A stretch of 64,000 nt of DNA from positions 12,488 to 76,487 of the forward strand of contig JACPKU010000006.1 in NCBI GenBank assembly GCA_016186915.1, in the 5' to 3' direction. The position numbers and the translations under genes are program-made. Of this stretch, positions 5,115 through 61,844 are shown piece by piece. The notes beneath the pieces are model-generated. The model had not been told where the DNA came from. It searched no databases and saw only the letters and a program-made list of their open reading frames with translations. Source of the DNA: Candidatus Doudnabacteria bacterium. Its GTDB lineage: Bacteria > Patescibacteriota > Doudnabacteria > UBA920 > O2-02-FULL-48-8. Every line of letters starts with the position of its first letter. Positions within the stretch are counted from its first letter, which is position 1.

Positions 5115-5116
5115 TT

Positions 5117-5953: not shown

Positions 5954-6026
5954 ATGTGGTACGTAGATGACGCCCGTTTGTCGGTAAATTCAATATAACA
6001 AAAACAATTCTCCACTAAATAATTCA

Positions 6027-6680: not shown

Positions 6681-6686
6681 ACCAAA

Positions 6687-6710
6687 AACCGCCTTTCGGC
6701 GGTTATGGTT
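6687..6710. terminator. Hairpin aaccgcc-tttc-ggcggtt after the 6027 gene (T-run is better on the minus strand)
   Basis: Perfect 7-bp stem; weak U-tract on the plus strand. Confidence 0.4.
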
Positions 6711-6782
6711 AAACTCTAACATAATGTTTTCAGTCGGGATTGTCATCTAAGAATATAGTAACAGAACAGAATAATTATAGCA

Positions 6783-7190: not shown

Positions 7191-7229
7191 GTCGGATAAG
7201 TAAATATATGACCTATAATATTTATATAA

Positions 7230-24664: not shown

Positions 24665-26101
24665 TTAGTTTATTTTTTTCTTCTTCTTAGGCACCTCTAC
24701 CTTGAGATGCAATTCTTTGAGTTGTTTTTCAGTAACTTCCGAAGGGGAGCCCATCATCGGATCGGAAACAGATCCAGCAAGTGGAAAAGCGATTACTTCA
24801 GCAATTCTTTCTTCGCTGGCTAAGATTCGAATTAATCGATCAATTCCCGGAGCAATACCGCCGTGAGGGGGAACTCCGTAAGTAAAGGCTTCCAACATGT
24901 GGCTAAATTGTTTTTTTTGTTCTGGCGTAAAGCCAATGAGTTCAAAGATTTTTTCCTGTATTTTAGGATCGTGAATCCGAATACTGCCCCCGCCGATTTC
25001 CACCCCATTGAGCACTAAGTCGTGTTGTAGCCCCCGAGCCTTACCCGGGTCGCTGACCAGCAGAGAGATGTCATCAGGATGCGGAGCGGTGAACATATGA
25101 TGAGAAGGGGCCCACTTGCTTTCCCCTGAACCGTAGAAGAAGTCTTCCTCCGATTGTTCCGTGAACAGAGGGAAGTCCAAGACCCAGCAAAAAGCCAATT
25201 CATTGGGGTCTTGTTTATTTTTTCTTAAATCCGGCTTATCACTGTCGTATTTTGTCTTGGCTTCTCTGTGGCTAATCCGAGGCCAGGGAGTTTGAGTAAT
25301 TTTTTTCTCAGGCGTTAGAGTTTGGACTAAGGCAGTGAACAGTTTTTCAATCAGCTCTAAAATGTCGTTTTGTTCGACAAACGACACCTCCAAGTCGAGT
25401 TGATAAAATTCGCCTGGGCTTCTGTCCGCTCTGGCGTCTTCGTCGCGGAAACAGGGGGCGATTTGGAAATATTTTTCCAAACCCGCGACCATTAAAAGTT
25501 GTTTGTATTGCTGGGGGGATTGAGGGAGAGCGAAAAATTTTCCCGGATAAATACGAGAAGGAACCAGATAATCCCTTGCACCTTCAGGCGTAGATTTGGT
25601 TAAAATTGGCGTTTGGACTTCGGTGAATCCGAGGTCAGTTAAGTAGTTTCTAATAAAGTGGATGACTTTGTGTCGAAGTTTAAGATTTTTCTTCATCCGC
25701 TCACTTCTCAAATCAAGATAGCGGTACTTGAGTCTTTTTTCCTCATTTACATCTTTTGTATTGTCGATTTCAAAAGGTAAGGTTTCTGATTTATTGAGTA
25801 CGGTTAATTTACTTACCTCCAATTCAATCTTGCCTGTAGGCAACTCGTTGTTGATTTGTTTTTCATTGCGCTTTTTGATGGTCCCCTCTACCGCAAGTAC
25901 ATATTCACTTCGCACCGCTTGGGCGTTTTTGTGGGCTTGTGCCGCTACTTTTGGATTGACTACCAACTGCAAGATGCCTGTCATATCGCGCAAATCAAAA
26001 AAAATCAGCTTGCCGTGGTCGCGCCTGACATTCACCCAGCCCTGCAGCAAGACTTTTTCTCCAATTTTTTGCGGCGTTTCAGAAACGTAGGTTCTTTGCA
26101 T
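24665..26101 (-). CDS. aspS: Aspartyl-tRNA synthetase (compact, archaeal/non-discriminating-type length)
   Basis: N-terminal OB fold, class II motifs FRDEDARADRSPGEFYQLDLE and GGGSIRIHDP, C-terminal GIDRLIRIL. Confidence 0.9.
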   Translation of the reverse strand: MQRTYVSETPQKIGEKVLLQGWVNVRRDHGKLIFFDLRDMTGILQLVVNPKVAAQAHKNAQAVRSEYVLAVEGTIKKRNEKQINNELPTGKIELEVSKLTVLNKSETLPFEIDNTKDVNEEKRLKYRYLDLRSERMKKNLKLRHKVIHFIRNYLTDLGFTEVQTPILTKSTPEGARDYLVPSRIYPGKFFALPQSPQQYKQLLMVAGLEKYFQIAPCFRDEDARADRSPGEFYQLDLEVSFVEQNDILELIEKLFTALVQTLTPEKKITQTPWPRISHREAKTKYDSDKPDLRKNKQDPNELAFCWVLDFPLFTEQSEEDFFYGSGESKWAPSHHMFTAPHPDDISLLVSDPGKARGLQHDLVLNGVEIGGGSIRIHDPKIQEKIFELIGFTPEQKKQFSHMLEAFTYGVPPHGGIAPGIDRLIRILASEERIAEVIAFPLAGSVSDPMMGSPSEVTEKQLKELHLKVEVPKKKKKIN

Positions 26102-26131
26102 ATACTATAAATTTACTTGGCCAGTATAACA

Positions 26132-26170
26132 TAAAAAAAGCCCGGGCGCGAGTTGTGTTACGCGTCCGGG
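26132..26170 (-). terminator. Intrinsic terminator for the purSL-purQ operon (minus strand)
   Basis: gcccgggcgcg..cgcgtccgggc stem with A7 on the plus strand giving U7 on the minus strand; marks the low-GC/high-GC boundary. Confidence 0.7.
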
Positions 26171-26202
26171 CACACTGTGTGTCCATTGATCTTTCTTGAT
26201 TC

Positions 26203-26931
26203 CTAGCGCACCGCATCCACGCCGTTGCGGAAGATGGCTAGGCCGTCATCACCTCCTCGAAGTTTGTCCACCCGGCGGTCAGGGTGGGGCATTATTCCCA
26301 TGATCAGACCTGTTGCGTCGCAGGCTGCTGCGATGTGTGAGCCGTTCGGACTGGCCGGGTACTCTTTAGTCCCTTCTTCCGTTCCGTACGTGCCGGTAAT
26401 GTGGAGCCGGTCCAAGTCGCCGACGGGTCGTCCTTCGCCGTGCGCTGTAGGGATCACGATCGGCACACCCTCCAGTCCTTTGGTCCATATGCATCGGACC
26501 TTGGGCTCGTGTAGGTATACCGTGACGTTGTACCAGTGTTCGAAGTTGGCTGACTGGTTGAAATCCAGCGCCACAGTCGGCTCTCTTGCTGGGCCTGCGC
26601 CGATGAGTCCGGCAGCGGTCAGGACCTGGAAGCCGTTGCAGATTCCCAGCATGGGAATCCTTCGTTCGAGTACACGACTCAGTTGATCGGAAAGCCGGAG
26701 TCTCAGGTCAATGGCTTGCACTCGGCCAGTGCCGAAGTGATCGCCGTGACCGAATCCGCCCGGCCAGATAATCAGATCCGCCTCATCCAGCCGGCGCCTG
26801 CCCAGGAGGCACAGCTTGAGCGGCAGGACCTCCGGTCTGGCACCGGCAAGTTCAAGGGCGCGTTGGGTTTCCAGGTGGCAGTTCGTGCCCGGAACCCAAG
26901 GGATGATCGCACGAGGCTTGTGGGTTCTCAT
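26203..26931 (-). CDS. purQ: Phosphoribosylformylglycinamidine synthase, glutaminase subunit PurQ-like (class I GATase); high-GC island
   Basis: PGTNCHLE, PGGFGHGDH, GICNGFQVL, HGEGR, NPNGS motifs; start set at MRTHKP, giving an ATGA overlap with the purL stop; local GC ~60%. Confidence 0.85.
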   Translation of the reverse strand: MRTHKPRAIIPWVPGTNCHLETQRALELAGARPEVLPLKLCLLGRRRLDEADLIIWPGGFGHGDHFGTGRVQAIDLRLRLSDQLSRVLERRIPMLGICNGFQVLTAAGLIGAGPAREPTVALDFNQSANFEHWYNVTVYLHEPKVRCIWTKGLEGVPIVIPTAHGEGRPVGDLDRLHITGTYGTEEGTKEYPASPNGSHIAAACDATGLIMGIMPHPDRRVDKLRGGDDGLAIFRNGVDAVR

Positions 26932-29786
26932 GACACTACCTCCCGGAACGTTTTTGCCCACAGCGTGCTTAGTGTTGCGATGTCGGTTGTGAACAGGCGA
27001 TCCCCCGACACGTCGATTACCTGAACGTCGGGGTTGGGCGTGACCCAGCCGATTTCGACTGCGTCGTGGCCGAGCCATTTGTAGTCATCGGTTTTGGTCG
27101 TGAACACGATGCCACACGACATCTCTCCGAAAAGCGAGAAGAGCGAGTCGAAGGGTAGGTTGAGAACAAACCCGAGCCTGGATCCGATGGCCATCTCGAA
27201 CAGTCTTCGGATTAGTCCACCCTCAACCACGGCCGAACGCGAGCCTACCACACCTTTTCGCGCCAGGCTGTGGTATTTCGAAAATCCCTTGACTGCTTGA
27301 GCGAGGTCCACGATGGGCAGTTCGTTTCCGCGTTGTCCGTAGAGATCGAACAGCACTGATCCGCCGAGGTGCTTCTGCATAAGCCCTGGGCAGAACAGAA
27401 TGATGCGTTCTCCGACGTTTCCGAACGCCTTGGGTCGTAGTAGTCGGCCATCAGCCATGCGGCCAACTGTGAGAATATCCAGTGTCAGCGGCGCGTCGAT
27501 TCGTTCTCCTGATTTCGTTACAAACGTGCCGCTTGAACTGTCTTTGCCGGTGATGATAGGAACCCCGAGTTGTTCTGATGCCGGGACATACCCTTCCTTG
27601 ACCAGCTCGATCAGGGCTCGAGCATTGGTGGGGTTGTCCAGCACCTTAGGAGTGTAGACGTTGGCACAGGCTGTGATCTGCTTTGGGTCAAACCCGGCAG
27701 CCACAAGCTTGGTGACTGCTTGCAGGAAGACAAGTCGACCCAAGCCAGCTGGCGAGACCTCGCCGTAGAACTGATTGACCGCGTTACCTACCCCAAGCGC
27801 AAATCTTTTGCCTGGAACAGGTGCGGCGGCAAACAGATCATCTGGCATGTTCTGATCTTCACCACCGAGGTAGGGGATGAATGTGTTTCCTTGGACGGTC
27901 TGGTCGAATCGGTGTGCAGCCCACGATTGGTCGGCGAGATGGAAGTGGCCGAGGTGCTGGACGACAAGGTCTATCCAGTCCTGCTCGCTTGTGGGGATTG
28001 GCGGTTGGAACGGTTTTGGCTTTGGGAGCCGATCAGCCACCTCAATGCGTGGAAGGGGACAGTCATCCGTGAGGAACTCGTATGGCAGGTCCTCTACAAT
28101 CCCTTTTTCCGAAAGGGCCGGGGTTTGGAGCCATTGACGCTGGTCGAGTTCATCGTCAAACGCCACGACGCAGCGTCCGGTGTTGGTAAACATACCGATT
28201 ACGTCTGACGGCACGTCGTATTGGTCCAGAGTGTCTAGGGCCAGATCAAGGCGGCCAGGAGGAACGGCGATAACCATCCGCTCCTGGGATTCAGATAGCC
28301 AGATTTGCCAGCAGGACAGGCCAGCTGTCTTGAGTCGCACCCAAGCCAGGTTGACCCAGATGCCGCAACTCGAACCCATCTCACCAGCAGCAGAAGCAAG
28401 TCCGGCTGCGCCGCAGTCTGTGATTGCTCGGATGCAGCCCTGGTCGCGCAGAATAGGCACTGCTTCCATGAACTTGCGCTGTTCGATTGGGGCGCCGATT
28501 TGGACATGCGCTGCGTCCACGACTGCTGTTTGGTGGGTCATGCTGTCTGAACTGACCGTGGCGCCGTGGATCCCGTCGTTGCCTGTGGGACCACCAATGA
28601 GGAAGATGAAATCCCCAGGCACAGGTGCGCCCTTTTGGGCTTTGTCCTCGGGAATGATCCCGATACTGTGCCCTAGCGCAAACCCTTTCCAGTTGCGAGG
28701 ATGCATGAGGTAGGCAGAACAGGCCATGGGGATGCCCATTGGGTTCGTATATTCGTGTGTTCCGCGGATGGCTTCTTGGATTACTCTGGCCGGGTGGAAA
28801 GCACCTTCTGGCACGTCGTTCCAGTTGGTTCTGGGATCGGTAGTGGCCATGATGGTTGTGCCGCAAACAGGCCAACCTCCGAGCCCAGTTCCGATAACGT
28901 CGCGGATCACCCCGCCGTGCTTGGTCATGATACCGCCGTAAGGGTCGCCAGCGAATGTGGGAGAGATGTGGGTCTCGCCCTTGATGATCACGGCCCAGCC
29001 GCCGAACAGCTCCATCACTCCGCCGTTGTCCACGAAACATGACAGCACCAGCGGGTGGTTGATCTTTTCGGTCGCGGCCCGAATACACGGCAGCAGCCCC
29101 AGAGCCTTGAAGGTTGTGTGGAAGCAGTGGTCAGACCAGGCCGCGGCCGGATGTTCGAGTTCGACATCAGTCAGTGCGCGTCGCAGATTTCGACTGATGT
29201 GCTGTATCGCTAGTAGTTGTGCGTCCGTGAGGTGAGTCATCTTTCGGCTCTTTGCGAGGGTTTTCAGTTCTGCTTTGTCCATGCCCGCGACTGAAAAAAA
29301 CTGGACGGGCAAAGCCTCTGCTTGAGGGATCAGGGTGTCCCATTGCGCTTCGTTGATCACCTGCACTTCTGGGTTGTACAGATGGCGTGCGGCGATTTCC
29401 CGAGCAGCGATTTCGTCCACACCGGAAAATTGATACCGGTGCGCCAAGCGAACCCAGGTAACACCTTGGACACCGACAGCCTGGAAAGCGTGGAGGGCGG
29501 TTGGCATTTCCGGGTCGGTCATTGCCCGTTTGTAAGCCACTTCGATCACTGGTCCGCGGCTTAGATCGAGACGTGAACTAGAGAACGCAGTCTCGATCAC
29601 GGGATTTGCAAAAAGAATCCCGATGCGCGCCAGGTCAGCGATGGAAAGCTCAGGGCCTTCGCAACGGATCACCACCTCAATGTTCACTGACCTGAGTGAC
29701 GGCCAGGAGGCGAGAGCCGCGGCATGCAGTCTTTTGGCGATTGGGTCGTCGACGGTCCGAGTTTTGAAGAGAGTCAAAATTGGCAT
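26928..29786 (-). CDS. purL: PurS-PurL fusion: phosphoribosylformylglycinamidine synthase synthetase subunit with N-terminal PurS-like domain; high-GC island
   Basis: N-terminal FANPVIETAF-type PurS-like module; ETHISPTFAGDPYGGIMTKHGGVIRDVIGTG matches the PurL ETHNHP..PY.GAATG.GG.IRD motif; duplicated PurM-like halves; start set at the ATG preceded by ggaga (the track start at 29798 is a TTG). Confidence 0.85.
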   Translation of the reverse strand: MPILTLFKTRTVDDPIAKRLHAAALASWPSLRSVNIEVVIRCEGPELSIADLARIGILFANPVIETAFSSSRLDLSRGPVIEVAYKRAMTDPEMPTALHAFQAVGVQGVTWVRLAHRYQFSGVDEIAAREIAARHLYNPEVQVINEAQWDTLIPQAEALPVQFFSVAGMDKAELKTLAKSRKMTHLTDAQLLAIQHISRNLRRALTDVELEHPAAAWSDHCFHTTFKALGLLPCIRAATEKINHPLVLSCFVDNGGVMELFGGWAVIIKGETHISPTFAGDPYGGIMTKHGGVIRDVIGTGLGGWPVCGTTIMATTDPRTNWNDVPEGAFHPARVIQEAIRGTHEYTNPMGIPMACSAYLMHPRNWKGFALGHSIGIIPEDKAQKGAPVPGDFIFLIGGPTGNDGIHGATVSSDSMTHQTAVVDAAHVQIGAPIEQRKFMEAVPILRDQGCIRAITDCGAAGLASAAGEMGSSCGIWVNLAWVRLKTAGLSCWQIWLSESQERMVIAVPPGRLDLALDTLDQYDVPSDVIGMFTNTGRCVVAFDDELDQRQWLQTPALSEKGIVEDLPYEFLTDDCPLPRIEVADRLPKPKPFQPPIPTSEQDWIDLVVQHLGHFHLADQSWAAHRFDQTVQGNTFIPYLGGEDQNMPDDLFAAAPVPGKRFALGVGNAVNQFYGEVSPAGLGRLVFLQAVTKLVAAGFDPKQITACANVYTPKVLDNPTNARALIELVKEGYVPASEQLGVPIITGKDSSSGTFVTKSGERIDAPLTLDILTVGRMADGRLLRPKAFGNVGERIILFCPGLMQKHLGGSVLFDLYGQRGNELPIVDLAQAVKGFSKYHSLARKGVVGSRSAVVEGGLIRRLFEMAIGSRLGFVLNLPFDSLFSLFGEMSCGIVFTTKTDDYKWLGHDAVEIGWVTPNPDVQVIDVSGDRLFTTDIATLSTLWAKTFREVVS

Positions 29787-29902
29787 CAGGTTCTCCAATA
29801 TTGAAAGAAAGATCGTTTTCCTCCTACGAACTTACAAGAACTTCAAGGACGCTCGCCCTTGACTTTCCAGTCTACCATAGTTTGATGGTTGGAGAAAATA
29901 AT

Positions 29903-29913
29903 TATGGTATAAT
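29903..29913 (+). promoter_or_regulatory. Extended -10 TATGGTATAAT promoter; the transcript is probably near-leaderless for the exonuclease gene
   Basis: -10 ends 8 nt before the ATG at 29922. Confidence 0.5.
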
Positions 29914-29921
29914 GCACGAGT

Positions 29922-30500
29922 ATGTTAAATAAAATTGTTCTCGATCTTGAAACTCAAAAATCGTTTGATGAAGTAGGCGGCAGGGACCGGAACCATATGT
30001 TGAAAGTCTCGGTGGTGGGGATTTATTCTTATTCGTTGAATAAATTTTCGACCTTCACCGAAAGTCAGTTGTTTCGCCTTGGCGAGATGCTCGCAGAGGC
30101 AGATCAGATCATTGGTTTTAACATAAAAAATTTCGATTTTCCAGTCTTACAGCCTTATCTAAGTTTTAAACTTAATAAAATTCCTCATCTCGACATCTTG
30201 GAAGAGGTGGAGAAGCTTATCGGGCACAGAGTGAAGCTGGACAACCTGGCCCAGACGACCCTGGGGACAGCCAAGAGCGGGGACGGACTGATGGCCTTAA
30301 AGCTTTTCAAACAGGGGAGGATGGAGGAGTTAAAAAAATATTGTTTGGATGATGTCAAAATCACGCGCGATTTGTACAACTACGTCCGGAAATACGGCAA
30401 ACTTATTTATAAAGATTACTTTGAAACCCGAGAAATAAAAATAAATTTTGAGGAGCCGCAAGGAAGACAGAAGGCCTCGCGTCAAGCTTCATTATTCTGA
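29922..30500 (+). CDS. RNase H-fold 3'-5' exonuclease-like protein (PolB-exonuclease-like / YprB-type)
   Basis: VLDLETQ (Exo I-like acidic motif) and IIGFNIKNFDFPVL (Exo II-like), plus YCLDDVKITRDLY. Confidence 0.5.
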   Translation: MLNKIVLDLETQKSFDEVGGRDRNHMLKVSVVGIYSYSLNKFSTFTESQLFRLGEMLAEADQIIGFNIKNFDFPVLQPYLSFKLNKIPHLDILEEVEKLIGHRVKLDNLAQTTLGTAKSGDGLMALKLFKQGRMEELKKYCLDDVKITRDLYNYVRKYGKLIYKDYFETREIKINFEEPQGRQKASRQASLF

Positions 30501-33492: not shown

Positions 33493-33900
33493 ATGCAAGA
33501 TTGTATTTTTTGTAAAATCGTTGAAGGATCGATTCCGTCGAATAAGGTTTACGAGGACGATCAGGTCTTAGCATTTTTGGATATCCGGCCAGTGAGTAAG
33601 GGGCACACCTTAGTTATTCCCAAAAAACATTCTCAAGACTTGTTGGATACTGACGACGAGACGCTGCAGCACCTTCTACTGGCAGCCAAAAAAGTGTCCC
33701 GGGCCGTAGTAAAGGCCACGGGGGCTCAAGGCTTTAATCTCGGGGTGAACAATGGCAAAGATTCAGGTCAGGAAGTGATGCATTTGCATTTTCATATCAT
33801 TCCTCGATACGTCAATGACGGTCTAAGCCCGTGGCCGCACCGAGAAAGCGATCCCACCGCCCTTTCCGAGCTTGCAAAAAATATTAAGCAGGCGTTTTGA
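33493..33900 (+). CDS. HIT-family (histidine triad) nucleotide hydrolase
   Basis: CIFCKI..; HLHFHIIPR histidine-triad motif. Confidence 0.85.
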   Translation: MQDCIFCKIVEGSIPSNKVYEDDQVLAFLDIRPVSKGHTLVIPKKHSQDLLDTDDETLQHLLLAAKKVSRAVVKATGAQGFNLGVNNGKDSGQEVMHLHFHIIPRYVNDGLSPWPHRESDPTALSELAKNIKQAF

Positions 33901-33901
33901 T

Positions 33902-34909
33902 ATGAAATATCTCATCACCGGCGGAGCGGGATTTATTGGTTCGAATTTCATTCATTATCTTTTTAAAAAATATCCAGATTGCGAAGTGGTAAATTTGGAT
34001 TTGCTTACTTATGCGGGGAATCTGGACAATTTAAAAGACATAGAAAATAATCCCAACTATAGATTTGTAAAAGGTGATATTGGAGATTTGGATTTGGTTT
34101 CTAAACTTGTGCAAGGGATAGATATGATCGTAAATTTTGCCGCAGAATCGCATAATGATCGTGCAATCATGGACCCTGGTATATTTGTAAAAACAAACGT
34201 GCTTGGAACCCAAATCCTTTTAGAGGCTGCCAAAAGAGCAGGGAACAAAAGATTCCATCATATCTCGACTTGTGAAGTCTTTGGAGATTTAGAATTGAAT
34301 GAAGATAGGAAATTTTTGGAAACAGACAAATTTCAGCCAAAAACTCCTTATAATGCCTCAAAAGCTGCAGCAAACCATGAGGTCATGGCCTATTTTCATA
34401 CTTATAAATTACCAGTGACAATCAGCCACTGTTCGAATAATTACGGCCCGTACCAATTTCCAGAGAAATTGATTCCATTGTTTGTTACCAATGCTCTGGA
34501 AGATAAACCTCTGCCACTTTTCAAAAATAGCCATTATAAGAGGGAATGGATACACGTTGATGATCATTCATCAGCAGTTGATTTAATACTACAAAAAGGA
34601 AAAATTGGGCAGAGCTATAATATCGGCACTGGCGTTGAAAAATCGGTTGAAGAAATCACTGATTTACTTTTAAAAATCCTTAATAAACCCGTGAGTCTTA
34701 AAACTTATGTTTCTGATAGATTGCAACATGACAAAAGGTATGTTTTGGATAATACAAAGATAAAAGAAGAATTGGGGTGGGGTCCGCAAATCGATTTTCA
34801 GAAAGGAATGGAAGAAACTATACAATGGTATCAGGAAAATAAAGATTGGTGGCAACGATGTAAAAGTGGCTCTTATCAAGACTATTACAACAGTTATTAC
34901 AAAAAATAA
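33902..34909 (+). CDS. rfbB: dTDP-glucose 4,6-dehydratase
   Basis: MKYLITGGAGFIGSNF Rossmann motif, YNASKAAAN (YxxxK), RmlB-typical C-terminus. Confidence 0.9.
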   Translation: MKYLITGGAGFIGSNFIHYLFKKYPDCEVVNLDLLTYAGNLDNLKDIENNPNYRFVKGDIGDLDLVSKLVQGIDMIVNFAAESHNDRAIMDPGIFVKTNVLGTQILLEAAKRAGNKRFHHISTCEVFGDLELNEDRKFLETDKFQPKTPYNASKAAANHEVMAYFHTYKLPVTISHCSNNYGPYQFPEKLIPLFVTNALEDKPLPLFKNSHYKREWIHVDDHSSAVDLILQKGKIGQSYNIGTGVEKSVEEITDLLLKILNKPVSLKTYVSDRLQHDKRYVLDNTKIKEELGWGPQIDFQKGMEETIQWYQENKDWWQRCKSGSYQDYYNSYYKK

Positions 34910-34932
34910 TTTAACAAACAATAAATAATAAC

Positions 34933-34956
34933 TTATAATACTTTAACGTATTATAA
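34933..34956. promoter_or_regulatory. Perfect palindrome TTATAATAC-TTTAAC-GTATTATAA (copy 1) upstream of the yerC-like gene
   Basis: Read directly; the conserved core AATACTTTAACGTATTATAA is also at 35357-35380 and 59294-59317. Confidence 0.7.
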
Positions 34957-34957
34957 C

Positions 34958-35353
34958 TTGAACGATATGACAAAAATATCGAGGAAAAAACTTTCTGAAG
35001 ACAAAATGGGCTTGTTGATTGATCAACTTTGGCGTGGATTTGCCTCCCTCAAAGACAAAGACGAGGTTCATGAATTTTTACATGATTTATTATCTCGAAC
35101 TGAAATCCAGATGCTGGCTAAACGTTTAGAAGTAGTTCGACTGCTTAATGAAGGTTGGAAATACGAGGAAATTAAAAACCGGTTAAATATCAGTGAAGCG
35201 ACCATCTCGAAGATAAATAATTGGAAAGAGGCGTTTGGCCAAGGTTATCAGAAGGTTATAGAAAGACTTAAGCGAGAAAGTGAGAAGAGAAAAAGAAAAT
35301 TACCGGGATTTGTAAAGAGCAGTCGATCGGCTGCAGCAAGTATTTGGAGTTAA
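34958..35353 (+). CDS. TrpR-related YerC/YecD-family HTH regulator
   Basis: LSRTEIQMLAKRLEVVRLLNEGWKYEEIKNRLNISEATISKIN matches the YerC/YecD (TrpR-like) family pattern. Confidence 0.75.
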   Translation: MNDMTKISRKKLSEDKMGLLIDQLWRGFASLKDKDEVHEFLHDLLSRTEIQMLAKRLEVVRLLNEGWKYEEIKNRLNISEATISKINNWKEAFGQGYQKVIERLKRESEKRKRKLPGFVKSSRSAAASIWS

Positions 35354-35356
35354 AAC

Positions 35357-35380
35357 TTAAAATACTTTAACGTATTATAA
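35357..35380. promoter_or_regulatory. Palindrome copy 2 (TTAAAATAC-TTTAAC-GTATTATAA) downstream of yerC-like, upstream of rmlC-like
   Basis: One mismatch in the left arm relative to copy 1. Confidence 0.7.
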
Positions 35381-35400
35381 GTTAAAGTTTAATCAAATAT

Positions 35401-35853
35401 ATGGACCAGGCGCACAACAAGGTGTATAAAGAATCGGCAAAAAAAGTGGAAACGAAGGATCATAATACCAATCCTAATGGTTGGCTCTTGGAATTGTTTA
35501 AAAGCCAAGACGGCAGTAAAACAGAGGTTTATCTTTCGGCAGCGTTACCTGGGGCGTTCAAAGGATACCATTTGCATAGGGTCCGCGCAGCACGATATGT
35601 CTGTCTTAAGGGTAGGATGAAAATCATTACGTATGAGCGCGAAGGCGAGCAATGGATTCGTTCAGAAAAAATTTTAGACGCATCAGTGCCGGAAAGACTA
35701 TTCATCCCCAAAGACGTTGCCACTGGACTGGAAAACATTGGCGGCGAAGAAGCTTGGCTGATCAATTATCCTGATCCGGCTTATGATCCCTCCCTCAAAG
35801 AGGAACAGGTAGAATATACGCAAAAAGAGTTAGAGTCAGGAGTGATCAAATAG
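35401..35853 (+). CDS. Cupin-fold sugar-nucleotide epimerase/isomerase (RmlC / FdtA-like)
   Basis: Small cupin with AFKGYHLHR..; located between rmlB and rmlD. Confidence 0.55.
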   Translation: MDQAHNKVYKESAKKVETKDHNTNPNGWLLELFKSQDGSKTEVYLSAALPGAFKGYHLHRVRAARYVCLKGRMKIITYEREGEQWIRSEKILDASVPERLFIPKDVATGLENIGGEEAWLINYPDPAYDPSLKEEQVEYTQKELESGVIK

Positions 35854-35909
35854 TAATTTACGCATTGTTTGACCGATCGGTCAAGAGTTGCGAAAGATTA
35901 TATAGTAAA

Positions 35910-36752
35910 ATGCCACAAAAGATTATAATTCTTGGAAGCAAAGGAAACCTGGGCGGAAAACTTATGGAGGTTTATGCTGACTTAAGGCCCGCTGGCTGGG
36001 ATCGAGAAGAGCTGGATGTGACGGATGAGGAGCAAGTAAAGCCCAAGCTCAAAGAATTTAAACCCGATTTAGTGATCAATTGCACTGCTTATAATGATGT
36101 GGATGGCGCAGAAGAGGATCGGGCAGTGGCAGAAGCGATAAACGGGTTGGCACCTGGCTATCTCGCTGCGGTGTGCGCGGAGATGGACGCTGTTTTTGTG
36201 CATTTTAGCACTGGCCAAGTTTTTGCCGGAGACAATAGTCAGGGGTATAATGAAGACGACGTCCCAAGCCCGCTAAACACCTATGGCAGGTCTAAGCTGA
36301 TGGGGGAGATGGAAGTTGAAAAAAACACTGAAAAATATTATTTGATTCGCACCGCCTGGCTTTATGGGGCTGGCCCGTCGTCGGGCAAGAAGAAGAGTTT
36401 TGTGGATATAATGCTCGATTTGGCGAAAAAGGACAGGCCGATAAAAGGCGTAGATGATGAGTTTGGCAACCCAACCTATAGCTTGGATTTGGCGCAAGCC
36501 GTGCGTGCGATGATAGAAGAGAAAAAGCCGTTTGGAGTTTATCACCTGGTAAACGAAGGCGTGGCTTCGCGTTTGGATTGGATGAAAGAAATATTCATAA
36601 TCAAAGAAATGGAAGTGGGGATTGTGCCAGTAAGTCGTGAGGAGTTTGCAGGCAAACGGAAAGCCAAGCGCCCGCAATACGAAGTTTTGAACAACACGAA
36701 ATTTATCAAGCTTCGGCCGTGGACCGAGGCACTGAAGGAATATTTGAAATGA
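35910..36752 (+). CDS. rfbD: dTDP-4-dehydrorhamnose reductase
   Basis: KIIILGSKGNLG, YGRSKLMGE, RmlD-typical length and order; start set at MPQKIII. Confidence 0.85.
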   Translation: MPQKIIILGSKGNLGGKLMEVYADLRPAGWDREELDVTDEEQVKPKLKEFKPDLVINCTAYNDVDGAEEDRAVAEAINGLAPGYLAAVCAEMDAVFVHFSTGQVFAGDNSQGYNEDDVPSPLNTYGRSKLMGEMEVEKNTEKYYLIRTAWLYGAGPSSGKKKSFVDIMLDLAKKDRPIKGVDDEFGNPTYSLDLAQAVRAMIEEKKPFGVYHLVNEGVASRLDWMKEIFIIKEMEVGIVPVSREEFAGKRKAKRPQYEVLNNTKFIKLRPWTEALKEYLK

Positions 36753-37483
36753 AAGGTGTGATTCTCGCAGGTGGGAAGGCTACAAGATTAAGACCCTTAA
36801 CTTTCGTTACGAACAAACACTTGTTGCCAGTCTATAACAAACCGATGATCTTTTATCCGCTTGAAGCCATGGCTAAAGCTGGGATTAAAGATGTGTTAAT
36901 GATCACAGGTCCTGATCATGCCGGGCATTTTTTAAATTTGCTTCGATCCGGAGGTGAATTTGGACTGAATCTAACATATGAGATTCAAGATGAAGCAGGG
37001 GGACTGTCTCATGCAGTAAGACTTGCAGAATCGTTTGCAGATAACCAAAAACTTCTTGTGATTTTAGGGGATAATATATTTGAGCATGATTTATCCGATG
37101 CTGTAAAAGATTTTGAAAGCCAAGACAGAGGAGCAAGAATTTTTGCTAAAGAGATGGATGAAGCAGGGCAGTATGGTGTAGTTGAGATAGACAGTGAAGG
37201 CACGGTTTTATCAATTGAAGAAAAGCCAAAAAAGCCAAAAAGTAAATTGGCCCAGACAGGAATTTATATGTATGATAATCAAGTGTTTGATTTGATAAAA
37301 GAACTTAAGCCTTCCACAAGAGGCGAGCTGGAAATTACTGATTTAAATAATTTATATTTGAAACAAGGAATCTTAAGTTGTGAAGTTATGAAAGGCTGGT
37401 GGGTTGACGCGGGAACTTCTTTTGATGAATTGCTGCGCGCCAGCAATCAAGTCGCAAAACTTACAAAACAAAAAGATAAATAA
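36749..37483 (+). CDS. rfbA: Glucose-1-phosphate thymidylyltransferase-like sugar nucleotidyltransferase
   Basis: MKGVILAGGKATRLRPLT..; ATGA overlap with the rmlD stop. Confidence 0.85.
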   Translation: MKGVILAGGKATRLRPLTFVTNKHLLPVYNKPMIFYPLEAMAKAGIKDVLMITGPDHAGHFLNLLRSGGEFGLNLTYEIQDEAGGLSHAVRLAESFADNQKLLVILGDNIFEHDLSDAVKDFESQDRGARIFAKEMDEAGQYGVVEIDSEGTVLSIEEKPKKPKSKLAQTGIYMYDNQVFDLIKELKPSTRGELEITDLNNLYLKQGILSCEVMKGWWVDAGTSFDELLRASNQVAKLTKQKDK

Positions 37484-38385
37484 TGACTGAGCTTCAACAC
37501 AAAACTTTATCAACATTTATAGTAACTGCCATTTCGTTTTTGGGCTTTCAAGCCCTGGTTTTTATTGTTTCAATTTATCAACTAGGGCAATACTTTCGTG
37601 CCGCGTTTTGGATTTACGCCTTTCTGGTTTTCTGGCTGCTTTTCATTTTTGACCTGCATTTGAGAAATCGCGGTGTGTTTGCGCTGTTGAAACTCAAACA
37701 CAACGGCGTAAGGTTAGTCTGGGAAGCCTTGAAAAAGCGCGTGGAGCATGTTTTTAATTGGCATTATTTCAGCCACTTGCTAGCTTTTCTGGTTTTACCA
37801 AGCATTATTTTTTGGAGTACCGTAGCCTTAATTGCTCTCAATCCGTTTGCTGAGCAAATCAAACAAATCATTGTGGTTATGACTGTGATTAATCTTGCCG
37901 TGGCTTATTGGTATTTCACGGAGCGGTTTAGCAAAAAATTAGAAGCCCACGAACTGGGCTTGAAAGTTTTGAACCTGGTTAAGCTTTTTGCTGCGTATTT
38001 AGCGGCAGCTTCTATCTTGGGGCTCACTTGGTATTTCGGTTTTGGAGAAGGCTTTTTGCTTGCCGGCATTTTTACTTTGACTTTCTTGGTTATGTATCAA
38101 GCTTTGTTTCAGCACAAACTCCTCAAGCTTAGCTCTGAATTTTACGCTTTAGGAGTTGCTGGCGCTTGCTCTTTGGCCGGACTTTGGCTTTATAGTAATT
38201 GGGATCTGCAATACTTCAGCGGGGGAATCGTGGTGTTGGCAACCTATAATGCATTATGGGGAATATTGCACCACCACCTGGACCAGAGCTTAAACAAAAA
38301 GCTGGTGGGTGAATATTTGCTGATGTTGTTAGTGGTTTTTTCTATTCTTTTCGCCACTCATAACTTTGCCGGCAGAGTATTGTAG
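37483..38385 (+). CDS. Polytopic membrane protein, hypothetical
   Basis: 8 or more hydrophobic helices; start overlaps the rmlA stop. Confidence 0.45.
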   Translation: MTELQHKTLSTFIVTAISFLGFQALVFIVSIYQLGQYFRAAFWIYAFLVFWLLFIFDLHLRNRGVFALLKLKHNGVRLVWEALKKRVEHVFNWHYFSHLLAFLVLPSIIFWSTVALIALNPFAEQIKQIIVVMTVINLAVAYWYFTERFSKKLEAHELGLKVLNLVKLFAAYLAAASILGLTWYFGFGEGFLLAGIFTLTFLVMYQALFQHKLLKLSSEFYALGVAGACSLAGLWLYSNWDLQYFSGGIVVLATYNALWGILHHHLDQSLNKKLVGEYLLMLLVVFSILFATHNFAGRVL

Positions 38386-52615: not shown

Positions 52616-52641
52616 CGGGGATGCTATTGTCCGGATCTGTT

Positions 52642-52679
52642 GCCGCTTTCGTGAGGGAATGAAAGCGGCTTATTTTTTT
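52642..52679 (+). terminator. Intrinsic terminator gccgctttc..gaaagcggc followed by a T-run
   Basis: 9-bp stem then ttattttttt; marks the end of the high-GC island. Confidence 0.75.
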
Positions 52680-52696
52680 GCTATAATGGGATTACC

Positions 52697-59267: not shown

Positions 59268-59293
59268 ATGTGTGACATATCACAAAATAAAAG

Positions 59294-59317
59294 GTAAAAT
59301 ACTTTAACGTATTATAA
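59294..59317. promoter_or_regulatory. Palindrome copy 3 (TAAAATAC-TTTAAC-GTATTATAA) upstream of the small basic protein + GT2 genes
   Basis: Core AATACTTTAACGTATTATAAG is identical to copy 2. Confidence 0.7.
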
Positions 59318-59319
59318 GT

Positions 59320-59541
59320 ATGCGCAAACTTAATTCCAAATTAAATCGTAAACAACAAAGAGAAAAGCTGCTTCAGAAGATGCTTTTCCTGATTCGGAAA
59401 AGTCCGGGGATTAGGCCGTCTAAACTTAATCGGCTTTTGAAGCTTGCTCATTCGGCGAGTTTTCGAAAGACATTAATTAAGCGTGGACTGATTATAAAAC
59501 GTAAAAAGGGTCCGGCGGTTTATTATTATGCACAAAGTTAG
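59320..59541 (+). CDS. Small basic (Lys/Arg-rich) hypothetical protein, possible winged-helix DNA-binding protein
   Basis: 73 aa with predicted pI above 10; overlaps the GT2 start by 14 nt. Confidence 0.4.
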   Translation: MRKLNSKLNRKQQREKLLQKMLFLIRKSPGIRPSKLNRLLKLAHSASFRKTLIKRGLIIKRKKGPAVYYYAQS

Positions 59542-60652
59542 CGTCATTGTAGTAATTTATAACGCGAAGAAATATATCAGACCGGTGTTTGAGGCGGTTT
59601 TGGCGCAGACCCATAAAGACCTGGAATTGATTGCGGTAATCAACGGCAACGATGATGGATCAAAAGAAATGATTGAGAAAAACTATTCCGCCTTCGCTAA
59701 AGCTTCGGCGGACAAGCCTCAAGTGAAAATCATTGATCCCGGGCGAAACACTTGGTTTGCGGAAGGGAATAATTTGGGGATTAAAGCATCAATTGGGGAA
59801 TTTGTTCAGTTGGTCAATCAAGATTTGATTTTAGAACCAGATTACATAGAAAAGCTTTTAAGGTCTTTTTTGGATCCACAAGTTGGGGCGGCTACTGGCA
59901 AGTTGTTGCGCTATGATTTTTCCGCCTACGCGCAAGGCTTCGGCGGATCCGCCGTAGCTTTAAGCGAAGGTGGAGAAAAAAACCAAAAGACAAACATCAT
60001 TGATTCCACGGGCGTGGTGATGTCAGCTTCCGGACGCGCTCGTGACCGCGGGCAGAATCAGGTTGATCAAAATCAGTTTCAGGCTGGGGAAGTGTTTGGC
60101 GTGTCGGGTGCAGGGCCGATGTATAGGAGAAGTGCATTGGAAAGCGTAAAATGGTGCGAGCCTTCGACTTTGCTTCGCTTGCTCAGGAAACGTCTGATGT
60201 TTCAGGCAACAAACAATTTGACCCCTGAGCCTGTCGAAGGGTCAAATTATTGTGAATACTTTGATCAGGATTTTGTGGCGTATTGGGAAGATGTGGATTT
60301 GTCGTGGCGGCTCAACCGCGCAGGGTTTAAAAACGTTTACGTGCCGGGCGCTGTGGCTTATCACGGCAGGACAGCAGGGCAGTCAAAAGGCGGGTACTGG
60401 CATTTTTGGCATTTTATTAAGCACCACTCTAAACTCTCAACTCAAATCCGCCGACTGAACTACAAAAACCACATACTTATGTACATTAAAAACGCGCCTT
60501 TCATTTTTCATCCCGCATTTTTGTTGCGTGAGATAGTGATGCTTGGATATATTTTTTTATTTGAAATCTCCACTTTGAAAATTTTCCCGGAACTAATTAG
60601 GCAAATACCGCGAGCACTGAGGAAGAGAGCACAAAAGTCATCCCAAACTTGA
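59528..60652 (+). CDS. Glycosyltransferase family 2
   Basis: VSVIVVIYNAKKYI..; DxD-type region and GT2 fold pattern. Confidence 0.8.
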   Translation: MHKVSVIVVIYNAKKYIRPVFEAVLAQTHKDLELIAVINGNDDGSKEMIEKNYSAFAKASADKPQVKIIDPGRNTWFAEGNNLGIKASIGEFVQLVNQDLILEPDYIEKLLRSFLDPQVGAATGKLLRYDFSAYAQGFGGSAVALSEGGEKNQKTNIIDSTGVVMSASGRARDRGQNQVDQNQFQAGEVFGVSGAGPMYRRSALESVKWCEPSTLLRLLRKRLMFQATNNLTPEPVEGSNYCEYFDQDFVAYWEDVDLSWRLNRAGFKNVYVPGAVAYHGRTAGQSKGGYWHFWHFIKHHSKLSTQIRRLNYKNHILMYIKNAPFIFHPAFLLREIVMLGYIFLFEISTLKIFPELIRQIPRALRKRAQKSSQT

Positions 60653-60668
60653 TTTGGGATCCAGGGGT

Positions 60669-60959
60669 ATGAATTTCTATTATATTTATATTTTAGCAAG
60701 CAAGCGAAACGGAACATTGTATATCGGCGTGACTTCAGACTTAGTAAAGCGAGTATATGAGCATAAAAATAATTTCGTGCAAGGGTTTACAGAAAGATAT
60801 AATGTTCACACTCTGGTTTATTTTGAAGTGGTCGAAGATGCAGAAAGCGCAATAAAAAGGGAGAAGCAGTTAAAGACTTGGAAACGAAAATGGAAACTCG
60901 AACTGATTGAAACGAACAATCCTGATTGGCGCGATTTATACGAGGAAATAATCAAATAA
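60669..60959 (+). CDS. GIY-YIG nuclease-superfamily small protein
   Basis: FYYIYILASKRNGTLYIGVTSDLVKRVYEHKNN matches the GIY-YIG core. Confidence 0.8.
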   Translation: MNFYYIYILASKRNGTLYIGVTSDLVKRVYEHKNNFVQGFTERYNVHTLVYFEVVEDAESAIKREKQLKTWKRKWKLELIETNNPDWRDLYEEIIK

Positions 60960-60992
60960 CTGGATTCCAGCTTTTGCTGGAATGACAAATTT

Positions 60993-61844
60993 ATGGATTT
61001 ATCGATTATTATTGTTAGTTATAACACCAAAGATCTTTTAAGAAGGTGTCTTAGAACATGTTTTGGATCAGCCACTAATTTTAGGTTTGAGGTATTTGTT
61101 TCAGACAATGGATCAACTGACGGCAGCGTTGAATTGATAAAGCAAGAATTTCCGCAGGTCAAGCTTGTGGAAAACAACGCCAACTTGGGATTTTCCAAAG
61201 GCAACAATGTAGCGCTTAAACAAGCGCAAGGGCGATACTCATTATTATTGAATTCAGATACTGAAGTAAACTCTGATACCTTTGATTTGTCCATCAAATA
61301 TATGGATCAAAATCCTGCAGTTGGAGCTTTGAGCTGTAAAATTTTGCTTCCGGACGGAAGCTTGGATAAATCAGCAAGAAGAAGATTCCCCAATCCCACA
61401 AACTCCTTCTTCAGACTCTTTGGGCTAAGAAAGTTTAGTGATTACAACATCACGGCCGGGATAGACGAGGAAGTTGAGATTGATTCTGGCGTAGGCGCGT
61501 ATTTAATGGTCAGAAAAGAAGCGATAGCGCAGGTGGGTTATCTGGATGAAGAGTTTTTTATGTACGGCGAAGATTTGGACTGGTGCTGGCGGATCAAAGA
61601 AGCAGGCTTTAAGATTATGTATTATCCTAAGGCCTCTATTTTGCATCTGAAATCAGCATCATCCAAAAGCCTCCCCTTTACCGTGATCAAATGGGCACAC
61701 CAAGCCATGAAAATTTTTTATCGCAAGCATTATGCGCAAAAAAATAACTGGTTATTCAACCAGTTGGTGTATTTGGGGATCAACTTACGCATGTTGTTGG
61801 TGCTTGCTATGAATTTATTTAGAAACAAAAAGTCGGTTCATTAA
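60993..61844 (+). CDS. Glycosyltransferase family 2
   Basis: LSIIIVSYNTKDLLRRCL..DNGSTDGS..; GT2-A fold signature. Confidence 0.85.
   Translation: MDLSIIIVSYNTKDLLRRCLRTCFGSATNFRFEVFVSDNGSTDGSVELIKQEFPQVKLVENNANLGFSKGNNVALKQAQGRYSLLLNSDTEVNSDTFDLSIKYMDQNPAVGALSCKILLPDGSLDKSARRRFPNPTNSFFRLFGLRKFSDYNITAGIDEEVEIDSGVGAYLMVRKEAIAQVGYLDEEFFMYGEDLDWCWRIKEAGFKIMYYPKASILHLKSASSKSLPFTVIKWAHQAMKIFYRKHYAQKNNWLFNQLVYLGINLRMLLVLAMNLFRNKKSVH

What the first reader, a model, noticed from the sequence alone, without database searches (positions are those of the whole stretch)
34933..35380. Perfect palindrome TTATAATAC-N6-GTATTATAA occurring three times: both flanks of a YerC/TrpR-like regulator and upstream of the GT2 glycosyltransferase block 24 kb away
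Copies lie at 34933-34956 (perfect 9+6+9 palindrome), 35357-35380 and 59294-59317; the 20-nt core AATACTTTAACGTATTATAA is identical in all three. The copies bracket the yerC-like gene inside the rmlB/rmlC-like/rmlD/rmlA cluster, and the third precedes a small basic protein + GT2 + GIY-YIG + GT2 set. Each overlaps TATAAT-like hexamers, so the sites probably double as promoter -10 elements and repressor operators. This points to a small regulon coupling dTDP-rhamnose synthesis to rhamnosyl- or glycosyl-transfer, possibly controlled by the YerC-like protein, whose family is poorly characterised.
Basis: seen in the sequence. Interest (0 to 1): 0.6.

Follow-up and report, generated by a model that had tools for sequence, protein, structure and literature searches.

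The report
Repressor gene bracketed by its operators
A 30-bp palindrome found three times in this Candidatus Doudnabacteria (candidate phyla radiation) genome is most likely the DNA site bound by the small TrpR/YerC-type repressor whose gene it brackets. It puts sugar-nucleotide and glycosyltransferase genes under one switch: a familiar kind of control, found in bacteria whose gene regulation is almost unstudied.

Summary
Three copies share an identical 20-nt core, against about 0 expected by chance. Each copy is really a roughly 12-6-12 palindrome ending 2-20 nt before a start codon. The organism is a Candidatus Doudnabacteria bacterium. The bracketed gene is a true YerC/YecD-family TrpR-like protein, the family of the Firmicutes histidine repressor HisR.

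I examined 11 related regulator genes from four genomic contexts. All 11 carry the same class of palindrome on both flanks. The palindrome class follows the recognition helix, not the genomic context. Proteins with Val at the TrpR-Ala80-equivalent position have a TTAC-N6-GTAA core; the others have ATAC-N6-GTAT. I predicted this core for one further protein before looking, and the prediction held.

Solo sites in relatives precede GT2, WecG, FtsQ-like and other genes. There is no support for an RNA hairpin, for a general promoter consensus, or for any Rfam family.

Best reading: these are autoregulated repressor operators that overlap the core promoters of the regulator, the downstream dTDP-sugar genes and a wHTH+GT2 operon. 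Binding, transcription start sites and the ligand are all untested. It is a new variant of a known kind and of moderate interest.

The parts
34930..34959 (+). Operator copy 1: AACTTATAATAC-TTTAAC-GTATTATAACTT.
34911..34939 (+). Candidate sigma-70-type promoter for the regulator: TTAACA, 17 bp, then TATAAT (11 of 12). The -10 hexamer is the left arm of copy 1.
   Evidence: This is a consensus match only; the transcription start site is unknown.
34967..35353 (+). YerC/YecD-family TrpR-like regulator, 128 aa, with recognition helix SEATISKI. It is the proposed binder of the palindromes.
35354..35383 (+). Operator copy 2: AACTTAAAATAC-TTTAAC-GTATTATAAGTT. It lies 424 bp centre-to-centre from copy 1.
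35401..38385 (+). Likely target operon downstream of copy 2: small cupin (35401-35853), rmlD (35865-36752), rmlA (36719-37483) and DUF5656 (37483-38385).
33872..34909 (+). rmlB-like dTDP-glucose 4,6-dehydratase upstream of copy 1. No terminator lies between it and the regulator gene.
59291..59320 (+). Operator copy 3: AAGGTAAAATAC-TTTAAC-GTATTATAAGTA. A candidate promoter is GTGACA (59272-59277), 17 bp, then TAAAAT (59295-59300), 10 of 12.
59320..61844 (+). Likely target operon of copy 3: 73-aa winged-helix protein (59320-59541), GT2 (59528-60652), GIY-YIG (60654-60959) and GT2 (60993-61844). It sits inside a Wzx (55330-56781) / GT4 (56778-57923) / Wzy-like (57996-59267) glycan cluster.

Best explanation
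The three palindromes are operators for a dimer of the YerC/TrpR-family protein encoded at 34967-35353. Each operator overlaps the core promoter and start region of the gene that follows it. The bound protein would therefore repress three units: (1) its own gene (autoregulation), (2) the cupin-rmlD-rmlA-DUF5656 genes directly downstream, and (3) the wHTH-GT2-GIY-YIG-GT2 operon 24 kb away. Repression presumably depends on an unknown small-molecule ligand, as tryptophan acts for TrpR and histidine for HisR. What is shown: the repeat, its positions, the family membership of the protein, conservation of the operator-gene-operator arrangement, and covariation between the recognition helix and the operator core. 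What is inferred: physical binding, the direction of regulation (repression), the position of the -10 hexamer and the transcription start site, and the existence of a ligand.
For: (a) Three sites against about 0 expected. All are intergenic, all end 2-20 nt before a start codon, and all are in the sense orientation.
(b) The protein passes the YerC/YecD model TIGR02531 (59.4 bits, cutoff 42.2) and Pfam PF01371. Its closest solved relatives are 3g1c, 3kor and 3frw, with E from 1e-13 to 1e-10.
(c) The characterised family member HisR (B. subtilis YerC) binds 20-bp palindromes of the form 7-N6-7 and is often autoregulated (PMC9413887). Here the conserved tetranucleotide ATAC/GTAT sits at positions 4-7 either side of a 6-bp centre, which is the same geometry.
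(d) All 11 related Doudnabacteria regulator genes examined are flanked on both sides by palindromes of one class. Their contexts are rml (P0001, P0002, P0004, P0009, P0019, P0021), aaRS-tatD (P0006, P0008, P0011), a pentose-phosphate operon (P0012) and a 2-hydroxyacid-dehydrogenase context (P0007).
(e) The palindrome class follows the recognition helix, not the context. SEATISKI goes with TTAWAATAC. TDSTIAKI goes with TACTATAATAC. TATTISNV goes with AGTMTAATAC...GTATTAGACT. S/TDVTI(A/S)K goes with a TTAC-N6-GTAA core. The varying residue aligns with TrpR Ala80, a DNA-contacting residue according to PMC9413887.
(f) Prediction test: I chose P0021 only because its helix is SDVTIAK and predicted a TTAC core. 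Both flanks read ACTA(A/C)ATTAC-TATATC-GTAATGTAGT.
(g) P0008 (Ser, ATAC) and P0007 (Val, TTAC) are the closest pair at 69% identity, yet they differ at exactly this residue and this base.
(h) Solo sites of the same class in the relatives' genomes precede GT2 (L114), WecG/TagA (L071), ftsQ-like (L032, L110) and PEP-utiliser-domain (L124) genes.
(i) The half-site contains TAnnnT in every class. Copies 1 and 3 have good -35 hexamers 17 bp upstream of the left arm.
Against: There is no experimental binding or expression data. The conserved region is 28-30 bp, longer than the 20-bp footprint expected for one TrpR-like dimer. The central 6 bp is unusually conserved and polar: its last base is always a pyrimidine on the gene-sense strand, and the two flanking copies in one genome usually have the same spacer. 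A purely symmetric operator does not explain this; it points to an additional embedded promoter or start-site function, or to concerted evolution. The sites lack the TGn extended -10 that this genome's other promoters have. For sites that end 2-4 nt before the ATG, neither arm gives a conventional -10-to-start spacing. The covariation rests on 11 proteins that are not phylogenetically independent. Targets are not conserved across species.
Confidence: 0.78

Rival explanations
1. The motif is mainly a promoter element: a lineage-specific promoter consensus, or the target of an alternative sigma factor or other polymerase. The palindromic look would then come from TATAAT being nearly self-complementary, and the YerC-like protein would be irrelevant.
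For: The arms contain TAWAAT and TATTAT. The site is polar and always oriented with the downstream gene. It always lies within about 30 nt of a start codon.
Against: Other promoters in the window look different: TGnTATAAT lies 7-25 nt before the ATG, and in about seven cases 7-10 nt before it. Only 3 of about 60 genes carry the motif. Symmetric changes on both arms, such as AT to GC in L010 and ATAC/GTAT to TTAC/GTAA in class E, preserve the dyad rather than a -10 box. The class co-varies with the adjacent regulator's recognition helix.
Confidence: 0.07
2. The palindromes act as RNA hairpins in polycistronic transcripts, as 5'-UTR or intercistronic stability, processing or translation elements.
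For: The sites lie between co-directional genes with no terminators. Copies 1 and 2 fold at -6.3 and -7.5 kcal/mol with z-scores of -6.4 and -2.8. One relative site (L124c) has two G-U-compatible mismatches.
Against: Copy 3 does not adopt the hairpin: -2.5 kcal/mol, z-score -0.4. Across 28 sites the mismatches are mostly A-A (21) and A-G (9). G-U-compatible mismatches number 7, against 5 A-C, so there is no strand bias. The commonest class-A form keeps a conserved A-A mismatch. There is no Rfam match. The arm sequences themselves are conserved across species rather than merely the pairing. An RNA role would not explain the link to the recognition helix.
Confidence: 0.04
3. The palindrome-gene-palindrome unit is chiefly a mobile or recombining cassette. 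The palindromes would be recombination or end sites, by analogy with REP sequences flanking RAYT genes, and solo copies would be remnants.
For: Identical-class repeats flank the gene in 11 of 11 cases and in four different genomic contexts. The protein tree does not follow context: P0006 in the tatD context groups with the rml class-A proteins, and P0021 at the rml locus groups with classes E and B. The two flanking spacers are usually identical within a genome. In assembly JACQJI01, contig 33 starts at a motif copy and the stretch fetched from contig 37 begins with one.
Against: The protein is a 128-aa HTH protein with no catalytic domain. Copy number is low. Synteny at the rml locus is conserved across species whose regulators are only 61-71% identical, so there is no recent mobility. 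No target-site duplications or empty sites were seen. This rival is compatible with the operator explanation rather than an alternative to it.
Confidence: 0.06
4. The sites are bound by a different protein, for example the 73-aa winged-helix protein encoded right after copy 3.
For: The 73-aa ORF is a confident winged-helix model (pLDDT 90; top fold matches are ArsR, SmtB, MarR and HlyU) and is conserved in other candidate-phyla-radiation lineages.
Against: The motif travels with the yerC-like gene in every locus and co-varies with its helix. Homologues of the 73-aa protein occur in lineages (Curtissbacteria, Daviesbacteria) for which no link to this motif was seen.
Confidence: 0.03

Closest known systems
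HisR (B. subtilis YerC and orthologues), the TrpR-family histidine repressor of Firmicutes (PMC9413887)
   Same: It belongs to the same protein family (TIGR02531, PF01371; best solved homologue 3g1c). The operator is palindromic, with a conserved tetranucleotide at positions 4-7 either side of a 6-bp centre. A site frequently lies upstream of the regulator's own gene. The TrpR-type recognition helix xxATISK/R is present.
   Different: The half-site sequence differs: AWAATAC against cacTTTA. The symmetry spans 28-30 bp against 20 bp. The targets are sugar-nucleotide, glycosyltransferase and envelope genes, plus tatD and others, and no his genes were seen. The proteins are longer (126-163 aa) and carry a basic C-terminal tail. 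A second operator always lies directly after the regulator gene. There are up to three paralogues per genome, each with its own operator class. The ligand is unknown.
E. coli TrpR and its operators (trpEDCBA, aroH, trpR)
   Same: It is a small dimeric HTH repressor. Its operators overlap the -10 region or the start site. It is autoregulated and controls a small dispersed regulon. The covarying residue here aligns with the DNA-contacting residue Ala80.
   Different: The protein fails the TrpR equivalog model (27.1 bits, cutoff 67.25). The operator consensus is different. No tryptophan genes are involved.
REP sequences flanking RAYT (REP-associated tyrosine transposase) genes (comparison from my own knowledge, not tested against a database)
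   Same: A gene is flanked on both sides by copies of the same palindrome class, and that class also occurs at solo intergenic sites. Different paralogues carry different palindrome classes.
   Different: The flanked gene encodes only an HTH domain and no HUH/Y1 catalytic domain. Only a few copies per genome were found, not tens to hundreds. The sites are positioned at gene starts.

Membership tests
YerC/YecD TrpR-related family (NCBIfam TIGR02531) | Score above the curated cutoff of the family HMM | tested here: met
   59.4 bits against a cutoff of 42.2, E = 3.5e-16, covering residues 17-101
Trp repressor superfamily (Pfam PF01371) | Pfam gathering score reached; sequence similarity to solved TrpR-like structures | tested here: met
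   62.1 bits against a cutoff of 27. PDB matches 3g1c (1.4e-13), 3kor (1.2e-11) and 3frw (1.3e-10)
HisR (histidine repressor) functional subfamily | Palindromic operator with conserved half-sites separated by a 6-bp centre (7-N6-7) | tested here: met
   ATAC-N6-GTAT, or TTAC-N6-GTAA, lies at positions 4-7 either side of the centre in 32 sites. Geometry as described in PMC9413887
HisR (histidine repressor) functional subfamily | Operator consensus cacTTTA-N6-TAAAgtg | tested here: not met
   The consensus here is TTAWAATAC-N6-GTATTWTAA
HisR (histidine repressor) functional subfamily | Regulon made of histidine biosynthesis or uptake genes | tested here: not met
   Genes behind the sites are rml/cupin, wHTH+GT2, GT2, WecG, ftsQ-like, tatD, SDR-rpe-tkt and PEP-utiliser-domain genes. 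No his genes occur in any locus examined. Whole genomes were not scanned.
HisR (histidine repressor) functional subfamily | Histidine-dependent DNA binding | not testable with these tools
   This needs a binding assay with purified protein
TrpR (tryptophan repressor, TIGR01321 equivalog) | Score above the equivalog cutoff | tested here: not met
   27.1 bits against a cutoff of 67.25
Intrinsic terminator | G+C-rich stem followed by a run of T | tested here: not met
   The scan reports no terminator at any copy. The stems are A/U-rich and fold at -2.5 to -7.5 kcal/mol. True terminators in the window look different, for example 13193, 18256 and 45207
Any described structured RNA (Rfam 15) | Match at the gathering score | tested here: not met
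   The only match in the window is tRNA-Glu
REP/RAYT-type or IS-type mobile unit | Flanked gene encodes a transposase or recombinase; repeats in high copy number | tested here: not met
   The gene has only an HTH domain. The only transposase matches (IS630, IS21) cover the N-terminal HTH region and score 16-21 bits against cutoffs of 100 and 160. There are 3 copies in 64 kb

The most novel reading that the evidence does not exclude
The operator-regulator-operator unit is a portable regulatory module. It lands inside co-directional operons (rml, aaRS-tatD, pentose-phosphate, 2-hydroxyacid dehydrogenase), splits them, and places both itself and the downstream half under its own control. Paralogues then diversify into orthogonal regulator/operator pairs through single recognition-helix substitutions (Ala, Ser, Thr or Val at the TrpR-Ala80 position, matched to A or T at operator position -7). 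If so, the few regulators in these tiny genomes would be a self-propagating toolkit rather than ordinary vertically inherited regulators.
Probability: 0.2. Interest if true: 0.65.

Novelty: new variant of a known kind. Interest (0 to 1): 0.45.

Why it matters
Almost nothing is known about transcriptional control in candidate-phyla-radiation bacteria (Patescibacteria). No paper in the searched library mentions TrpR together with these lineages. This locus offers a concrete and testable regulator-operator pair, and a small regulon that touches cell-surface glycan synthesis, which probably matters for the epibiotic lifestyle of these organisms. It also offers a natural series of paralogous regulator/operator pairs in which one helix residue tracks one operator base. 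That series is useful for understanding and engineering TrpR-family specificity. It further shows that the YerC/HisR family is not restricted to histidine control.

Tried and rejected
- Rfam scan of the whole window: only a tRNA was found.
- RNA folding of the copies gave weak stems, and copy 3 did not fold. Mismatch typing showed no G-U bias on either strand. I rejected the RNA reading.
- The genome-contig scan with AATACTTTNNCGTATTWTAA gave 93 hits. Nearly all were chance matches in unrelated taxa, and only 5 loci were from Doudnabacteria.
- The metagenome scan gave 28 loci. About 17 were one unrelated gut-metagenome sequence, and about 5 more were chance matches (L112/L131, L119/L133, L123, L130, L134).
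- A weight-matrix search for weaker sites in the window found none above the shuffle maximum, apart from a 16-bit hit in coding sequence at 24076.
- I looked for helical phasing between the two flanking operators. The spacings are 401-511 bp, and spacing divided by 10.5 has scattered fractions (coordinates). This gives no support for a phased loop.
- The look-up of the window genome's second paralogue (P0069, on the same 420-kb contig) failed. I could therefore not test whether the second palindrome family in the window is its operator.
- Treating the right arm TATTAT as the -10 hexamer gives impossible spacing for sites 2-4 nt from the ATG. Treating the spacer as a -35 hexamer gives no consistent -10.
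- A resemblance to the T7 promoter (TAATAC...TATA) was considered and dropped as coincidence, because the dyad symmetry co-varies.
- Literature searches for TrpR or YerC in candidate-phyla-radiation bacteria found nothing.

Full report
**1. The observation**

The pattern TTATAATAC-N6-GTATTATAA, allowing up to 3 mismatches, occurs at 34933-34956 (0 mismatches), 35357-35380 (1) and 59294-59317 (2), and nowhere else. Shuffles give a mean of 0.01 matches. The 20-nt core AATACTTTAACGTATTATAA is identical in all three copies.

AACTTATAATAC-TTTAAC-GTATTATAACTT (34930-34959) and AACTTAAAATAC-TTTAAC-GTATTATAAGTT (35354-35383) are 12-6-12 palindromes with one mismatch each.

A weight matrix built only from sites in other species scores the three window sites at 39.6-46.3 bits. 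The maximum over 50 shuffles is 15.3 bits. Nothing else in the 64 kb is credible.

**2. Genes and organism**

- 34967-35353 encodes a 128-aa protein that matches Pfam Trp_repressor and passes the NCBIfam YerC/YecD model (59.4 bits, cutoff 42.2). It fails the TrpR equivalog model (27.1 bits, cutoff 67.25). Its best solved relatives are 3g1c, 3kor and 3frw.
- It sits between an rmlB-like gene on one side and a small cupin, rmlD, rmlA and DUF5656 on the other.
- The cupin is not a canonical RmlC.
- Copy 3 lies inside a glycan cluster: Wzx-type flippase, GT4 and a Wzy-like polymerase upstream, then a 73-aa protein, GT2, GIY-YIG and GT2 downstream.
- The 73-aa protein is a real and conserved winged-helix protein.
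- The identical regulator protein is annotated in NCBI as coming from Candidatus Doudnabacteria, a lineage of the candidate phyla radiation.

**3. Comparative evidence**

I fetched the loci of ten further homologues, 42-71% identical to the window protein. Together with the window protein, all eleven genes have a palindrome of one class directly upstream and a palindrome of the same class directly downstream.

| Protein | Locus | Context | Recognition helix | Upstream site / downstream site |
|---|---|---|---|---|
| P0001 | window | rml | SEATISKI | see section 1 |
| P0002 | L005 | rml | SEATISKI | AAGTTAAAATAC-TTTAAC-GTATTTTAAGTT / ...GTATTATAACCT |
| P0004 | L006 | rml | SEATISKI | AGGTTATAATAC-TTTAAC-GTATTATAAGTT / AAGTTAAAATAC-TTTAAC-GTATTATAAGTT |
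| P0009 | L137 | rml | SEATISKI | ...AATAATAC-TTTAAC-GTATTAAAGT on both flanks |
| P0019 | L138 | rml | SDTTIAKI | AAAAATAC-ATTATC-GTATTAAAGT on both flanks |
| P0006 | L008 | aaRS-tatD | SEATISKI | AACTTAAAATAC-TTTACC-GTATTATAAGT on both flanks |
| P0008 | L010 | aaRS-tatD | TDSTIAKI | TACTATAATAC-TGCGCC-GTATTAAAGTA / GCTATAATAC-TGCGCT-GTAATAGAGG |
| P0012 | L105 | tim-rpiB-[gene]-SDR-rpe-tkt | TATTISNV | AGTATAATAC-TCTCGT-GTATTAGACT / CTCTGATAC-TCCCGT-GTATTAGACT |
| P0011 | L135 | aaRS-tatD | TDVTISKI | TACTATATTAC-TAGATC-GTAATATAGTA on both flanks |
| P0007 | L136 | after a 2-hydroxyacid dehydrogenase | SDVTIAKI | TACTACATTAC-TGTATC-GTAATGTAGTA / CACTAAATTAC-TGTATC-GTAATGTAGTG |
| P0021 | L139 | rml | SDVTIAKL | see section 4 |

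The bracket arrangement is therefore tied to the gene, not to the rml cluster.

**4. Covariation and a prediction test**

In alignment A1, the recognition helix aligns with the TrpR residues Ile79, Ala80, Thr81, Ile82, Thr83 and Arg84. In HisR this stretch reads TATISR.

The residue at the Ala80 position varies: Ala, Ser, Thr or Val. The two proteins with Val in the initial set (P0007, P0011) are the only ones whose palindromes have a TTAC...GTAA core instead of ATAC...GTAT.

I then chose P0021 from a new search solely because its helix reads SDVTIAK, and predicted a TTAC core. Its gene lies at the rml locus, the same context as the class-A proteins. It is flanked by ACTAAATTAC-TATATC-GTAATGTAGT and TACTACATTAC-TATATC-GTAATGTAGTA, so the prediction held.

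The tally is 3 of 3 Val proteins with TTAC and 8 of 8 others with ATAC. A naive Fisher exact test gives about 0.006, but the proteins are not phylogenetically independent. P0008 (Ser, ATAC) and P0007 (Val, TTAC) are the closest pair at 69% identity.

The operator class follows the helix and the protein phylogeny, not the genomic context. P0006 in the tatD context groups with the rml class-A proteins, and P0021 at the rml locus groups with classes E and B. This is the strongest computational evidence available that these proteins read these palindromes.

**5. Regulon**

Scans of public collections for the class-A motif returned mostly chance hits. They did recover solo sites in Doudnabacteria genomes:
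- before a WecG/TagA glycosyltransferase (L071);
- before an ftsQ-like gene just after ddl (L032, L110);
- before a GT2 gene (L114);
- in an array of PEP-utiliser-domain paralogues (L124).

L071 comes from the genome that also encodes P0008, P0019 and P0089.

The set is not restricted to rhamnose or glycan genes, however, and orthologous targets are not conserved.

Only a few sites per genome were found, although these scans were not exhaustive.

**6. Mechanism**

In every class the half-site contains a TAnnnT hexamer at positions -11 to -6 from the dyad centre. For copies 1 and 3 the scan finds TTAACA-17-TATAAT (11 of 12) and GTGACA-17-TAAAAT (10 of 12), with the left arm as the -10 hexamer. 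That would place the transcription start site inside the 6-bp spacer and the operator on top of both the -10 hexamer and the start site. TrpR has the same arrangement at its own trpR promoter (from my own knowledge).

The spacer is polar. On the gene-sense strand its last base is a pyrimidine in all 13 distinct spacers, and its first base is usually T. This fits an embedded promoter or start-site function.

Against a simple picture:
- The sites lack the TGn extension that this genome's other promoters show. Many of those promoters sit 7-10 nt before the ATG and so look leaderless.
- For sites 2-4 nt from the ATG, the leader would be about 13-15 nt long with no Shine-Dalgarno sequence.

The transcription start site is therefore unresolved. 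Repression is inferred from the site position and from family precedent (TrpR, HisR). The ligand is unknown.

**7. Rivals**

- *General promoter consensus.* Rejected, because other promoters differ and the motif is rare.
- *RNA hairpin.* The folds are weak and copy 3 does not fold. The mismatches are mostly A-A and A-G, with no G-U strand bias. There is no Rfam hit.
- *Mobile cassette.* The HTH-only protein, the low copy number and the conserved synteny argue against current mobility. The mismatch between context and phylogeny, and the identical spacers on the two flanks, leave room for past movement or gene conversion. I carry this as the novel case.
- *Binding by the 73-aa wHTH protein.* No association with the motif was seen outside this locus.

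**8. Comparison with known systems**

The closest system is HisR, the product of B. subtilis yerC (PMC9413887). It shares the family, the operator geometry and the autoregulation. It differs in half-site sequence, in targets and in protein length, and it lacks both the constant second operator after the gene and the multiple paralogue/operator classes per genome seen here.

No paper in the searched library connects TrpR or YerC regulators with candidate-phyla-radiation bacteria.

**9. Verdict**

It is a new variant of a well-known kind of regulator-operator system. Its value lies mainly in three things: it gives a first handle on regulation in these bacteria, it provides a clean natural specificity series, and the module may be portable. 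Interest: 0.45.

Noticed in passing
window 5629-5652 and 59244-59273: There is a second palindrome family with the same ATAC-N6-GTAT core but different arms. CTATCATACA-GTCA-TGTATGATAG lies inside ORF 5117-5953. The two copies share 17 of 18 central bases and fold at -12.7 and -17.9 kcal/mol. They may be operators of the genome's second YerC paralogue (P0069, 163 aa, on the same 420-kb contig), but this could not be tested.
   Followed up: partly
window, upstream of 7230, 10233(-), 12181, 15245, 29922, 52697 and 55330: Many genes have an extended -10 box (TGnTATAAT or TATACT) only 7-10 nt before the ATG, and only 10 of 43 genes have a Shine-Dalgarno-like sequence. This suggests that leaderless mRNAs are common in this organism.
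   Followed up: partly
window 59320-59541: The 73-aa basic ORF is a conserved winged-helix protein. The AlphaFold2 model has pLDDT 90 and its top fold matches are ArsR, SmtB, MarR and HlyU. Homologues of 49-69% identity across the alignment occur in other candidate-phyla-radiation lineages (Curtissbacteria, Daviesbacteria), and it matches no Pfam family. It may form a second regulatory tier under the YerC-like repressor.
   Followed up: partly
window 35401-35853: The gene in the rmlC position is a 150-aa cupin. It has no detectable similarity to the canonical RmlC (PF00908) that occupies this position in L006, L137, L138 and L139, and only a weak match to the Cap5F C-terminal cupin. It may be a non-orthologous replacement, or the pathway may make a different sugar product.
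   Followed up: partly
L010 7644-10652, L008 8070-11165, L114 1481-2905: A serine-hydrolase (PF06821, alpha/beta hydrolase) domain is inserted in-frame in LeuRS, at aa 245-400 just before the editing domain, and also in a GT2 glycosyltransferase at aa 209-366. In L010 a class-B palindrome (about nt 8880-8910) sits at the 3' junction of the insert.
   Followed up: partly
L032 about 7845-7875 (- strand): A shortened but symmetric copy of the class-A palindrome (GTTAAATAC-TTTAAC-GTATTTAAAG), with the identical spacer, lies inside the coding sequence of a LysRS-like gene (peptide KVKYFNVFKD). It is unexplained.
   Followed up: no
L124 about 490-10571: A tandem array of at least six paralogous proteins of about 370-510 aa, at least three of them with a C-terminal PEP-utiliser mobile domain. 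Class-A and class-B palindromes lie in several of the gaps between the genes, and two different palindromes stand in tandem before the gene at 7670.
   Followed up: partly
L005/L022 position 9-28 and L033 position 4-23 (assembly JACQJI01): Contig 33 of this relative's assembly starts at a motif copy, and the stretch fetched from contig 37 begins with one. This may reflect assembly breaks at the repeat or population heterogeneity around the cassette.
   Followed up: no
window 26001-30000, 8001-10000 and 52001-54000: The G+C content rises to 0.53-0.57 against about 0.44 elsewhere. The 26-30 kb stretch covers a 956-aa FGAM-synthase-like gene on the minus strand. The gene at 7230-10232 encodes a 1000-aa protein with a cellulase-like domain and a T4SS-pilin-like domain.
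   Followed up: no
window 60654-60959; L137 12847-13140: A small stand-alone GIY-YIG protein sits between the two GT2 genes in the window. A similar one follows rmlA in a relative. It is an odd and recurring passenger in sugar gene clusters.
   Followed up: no
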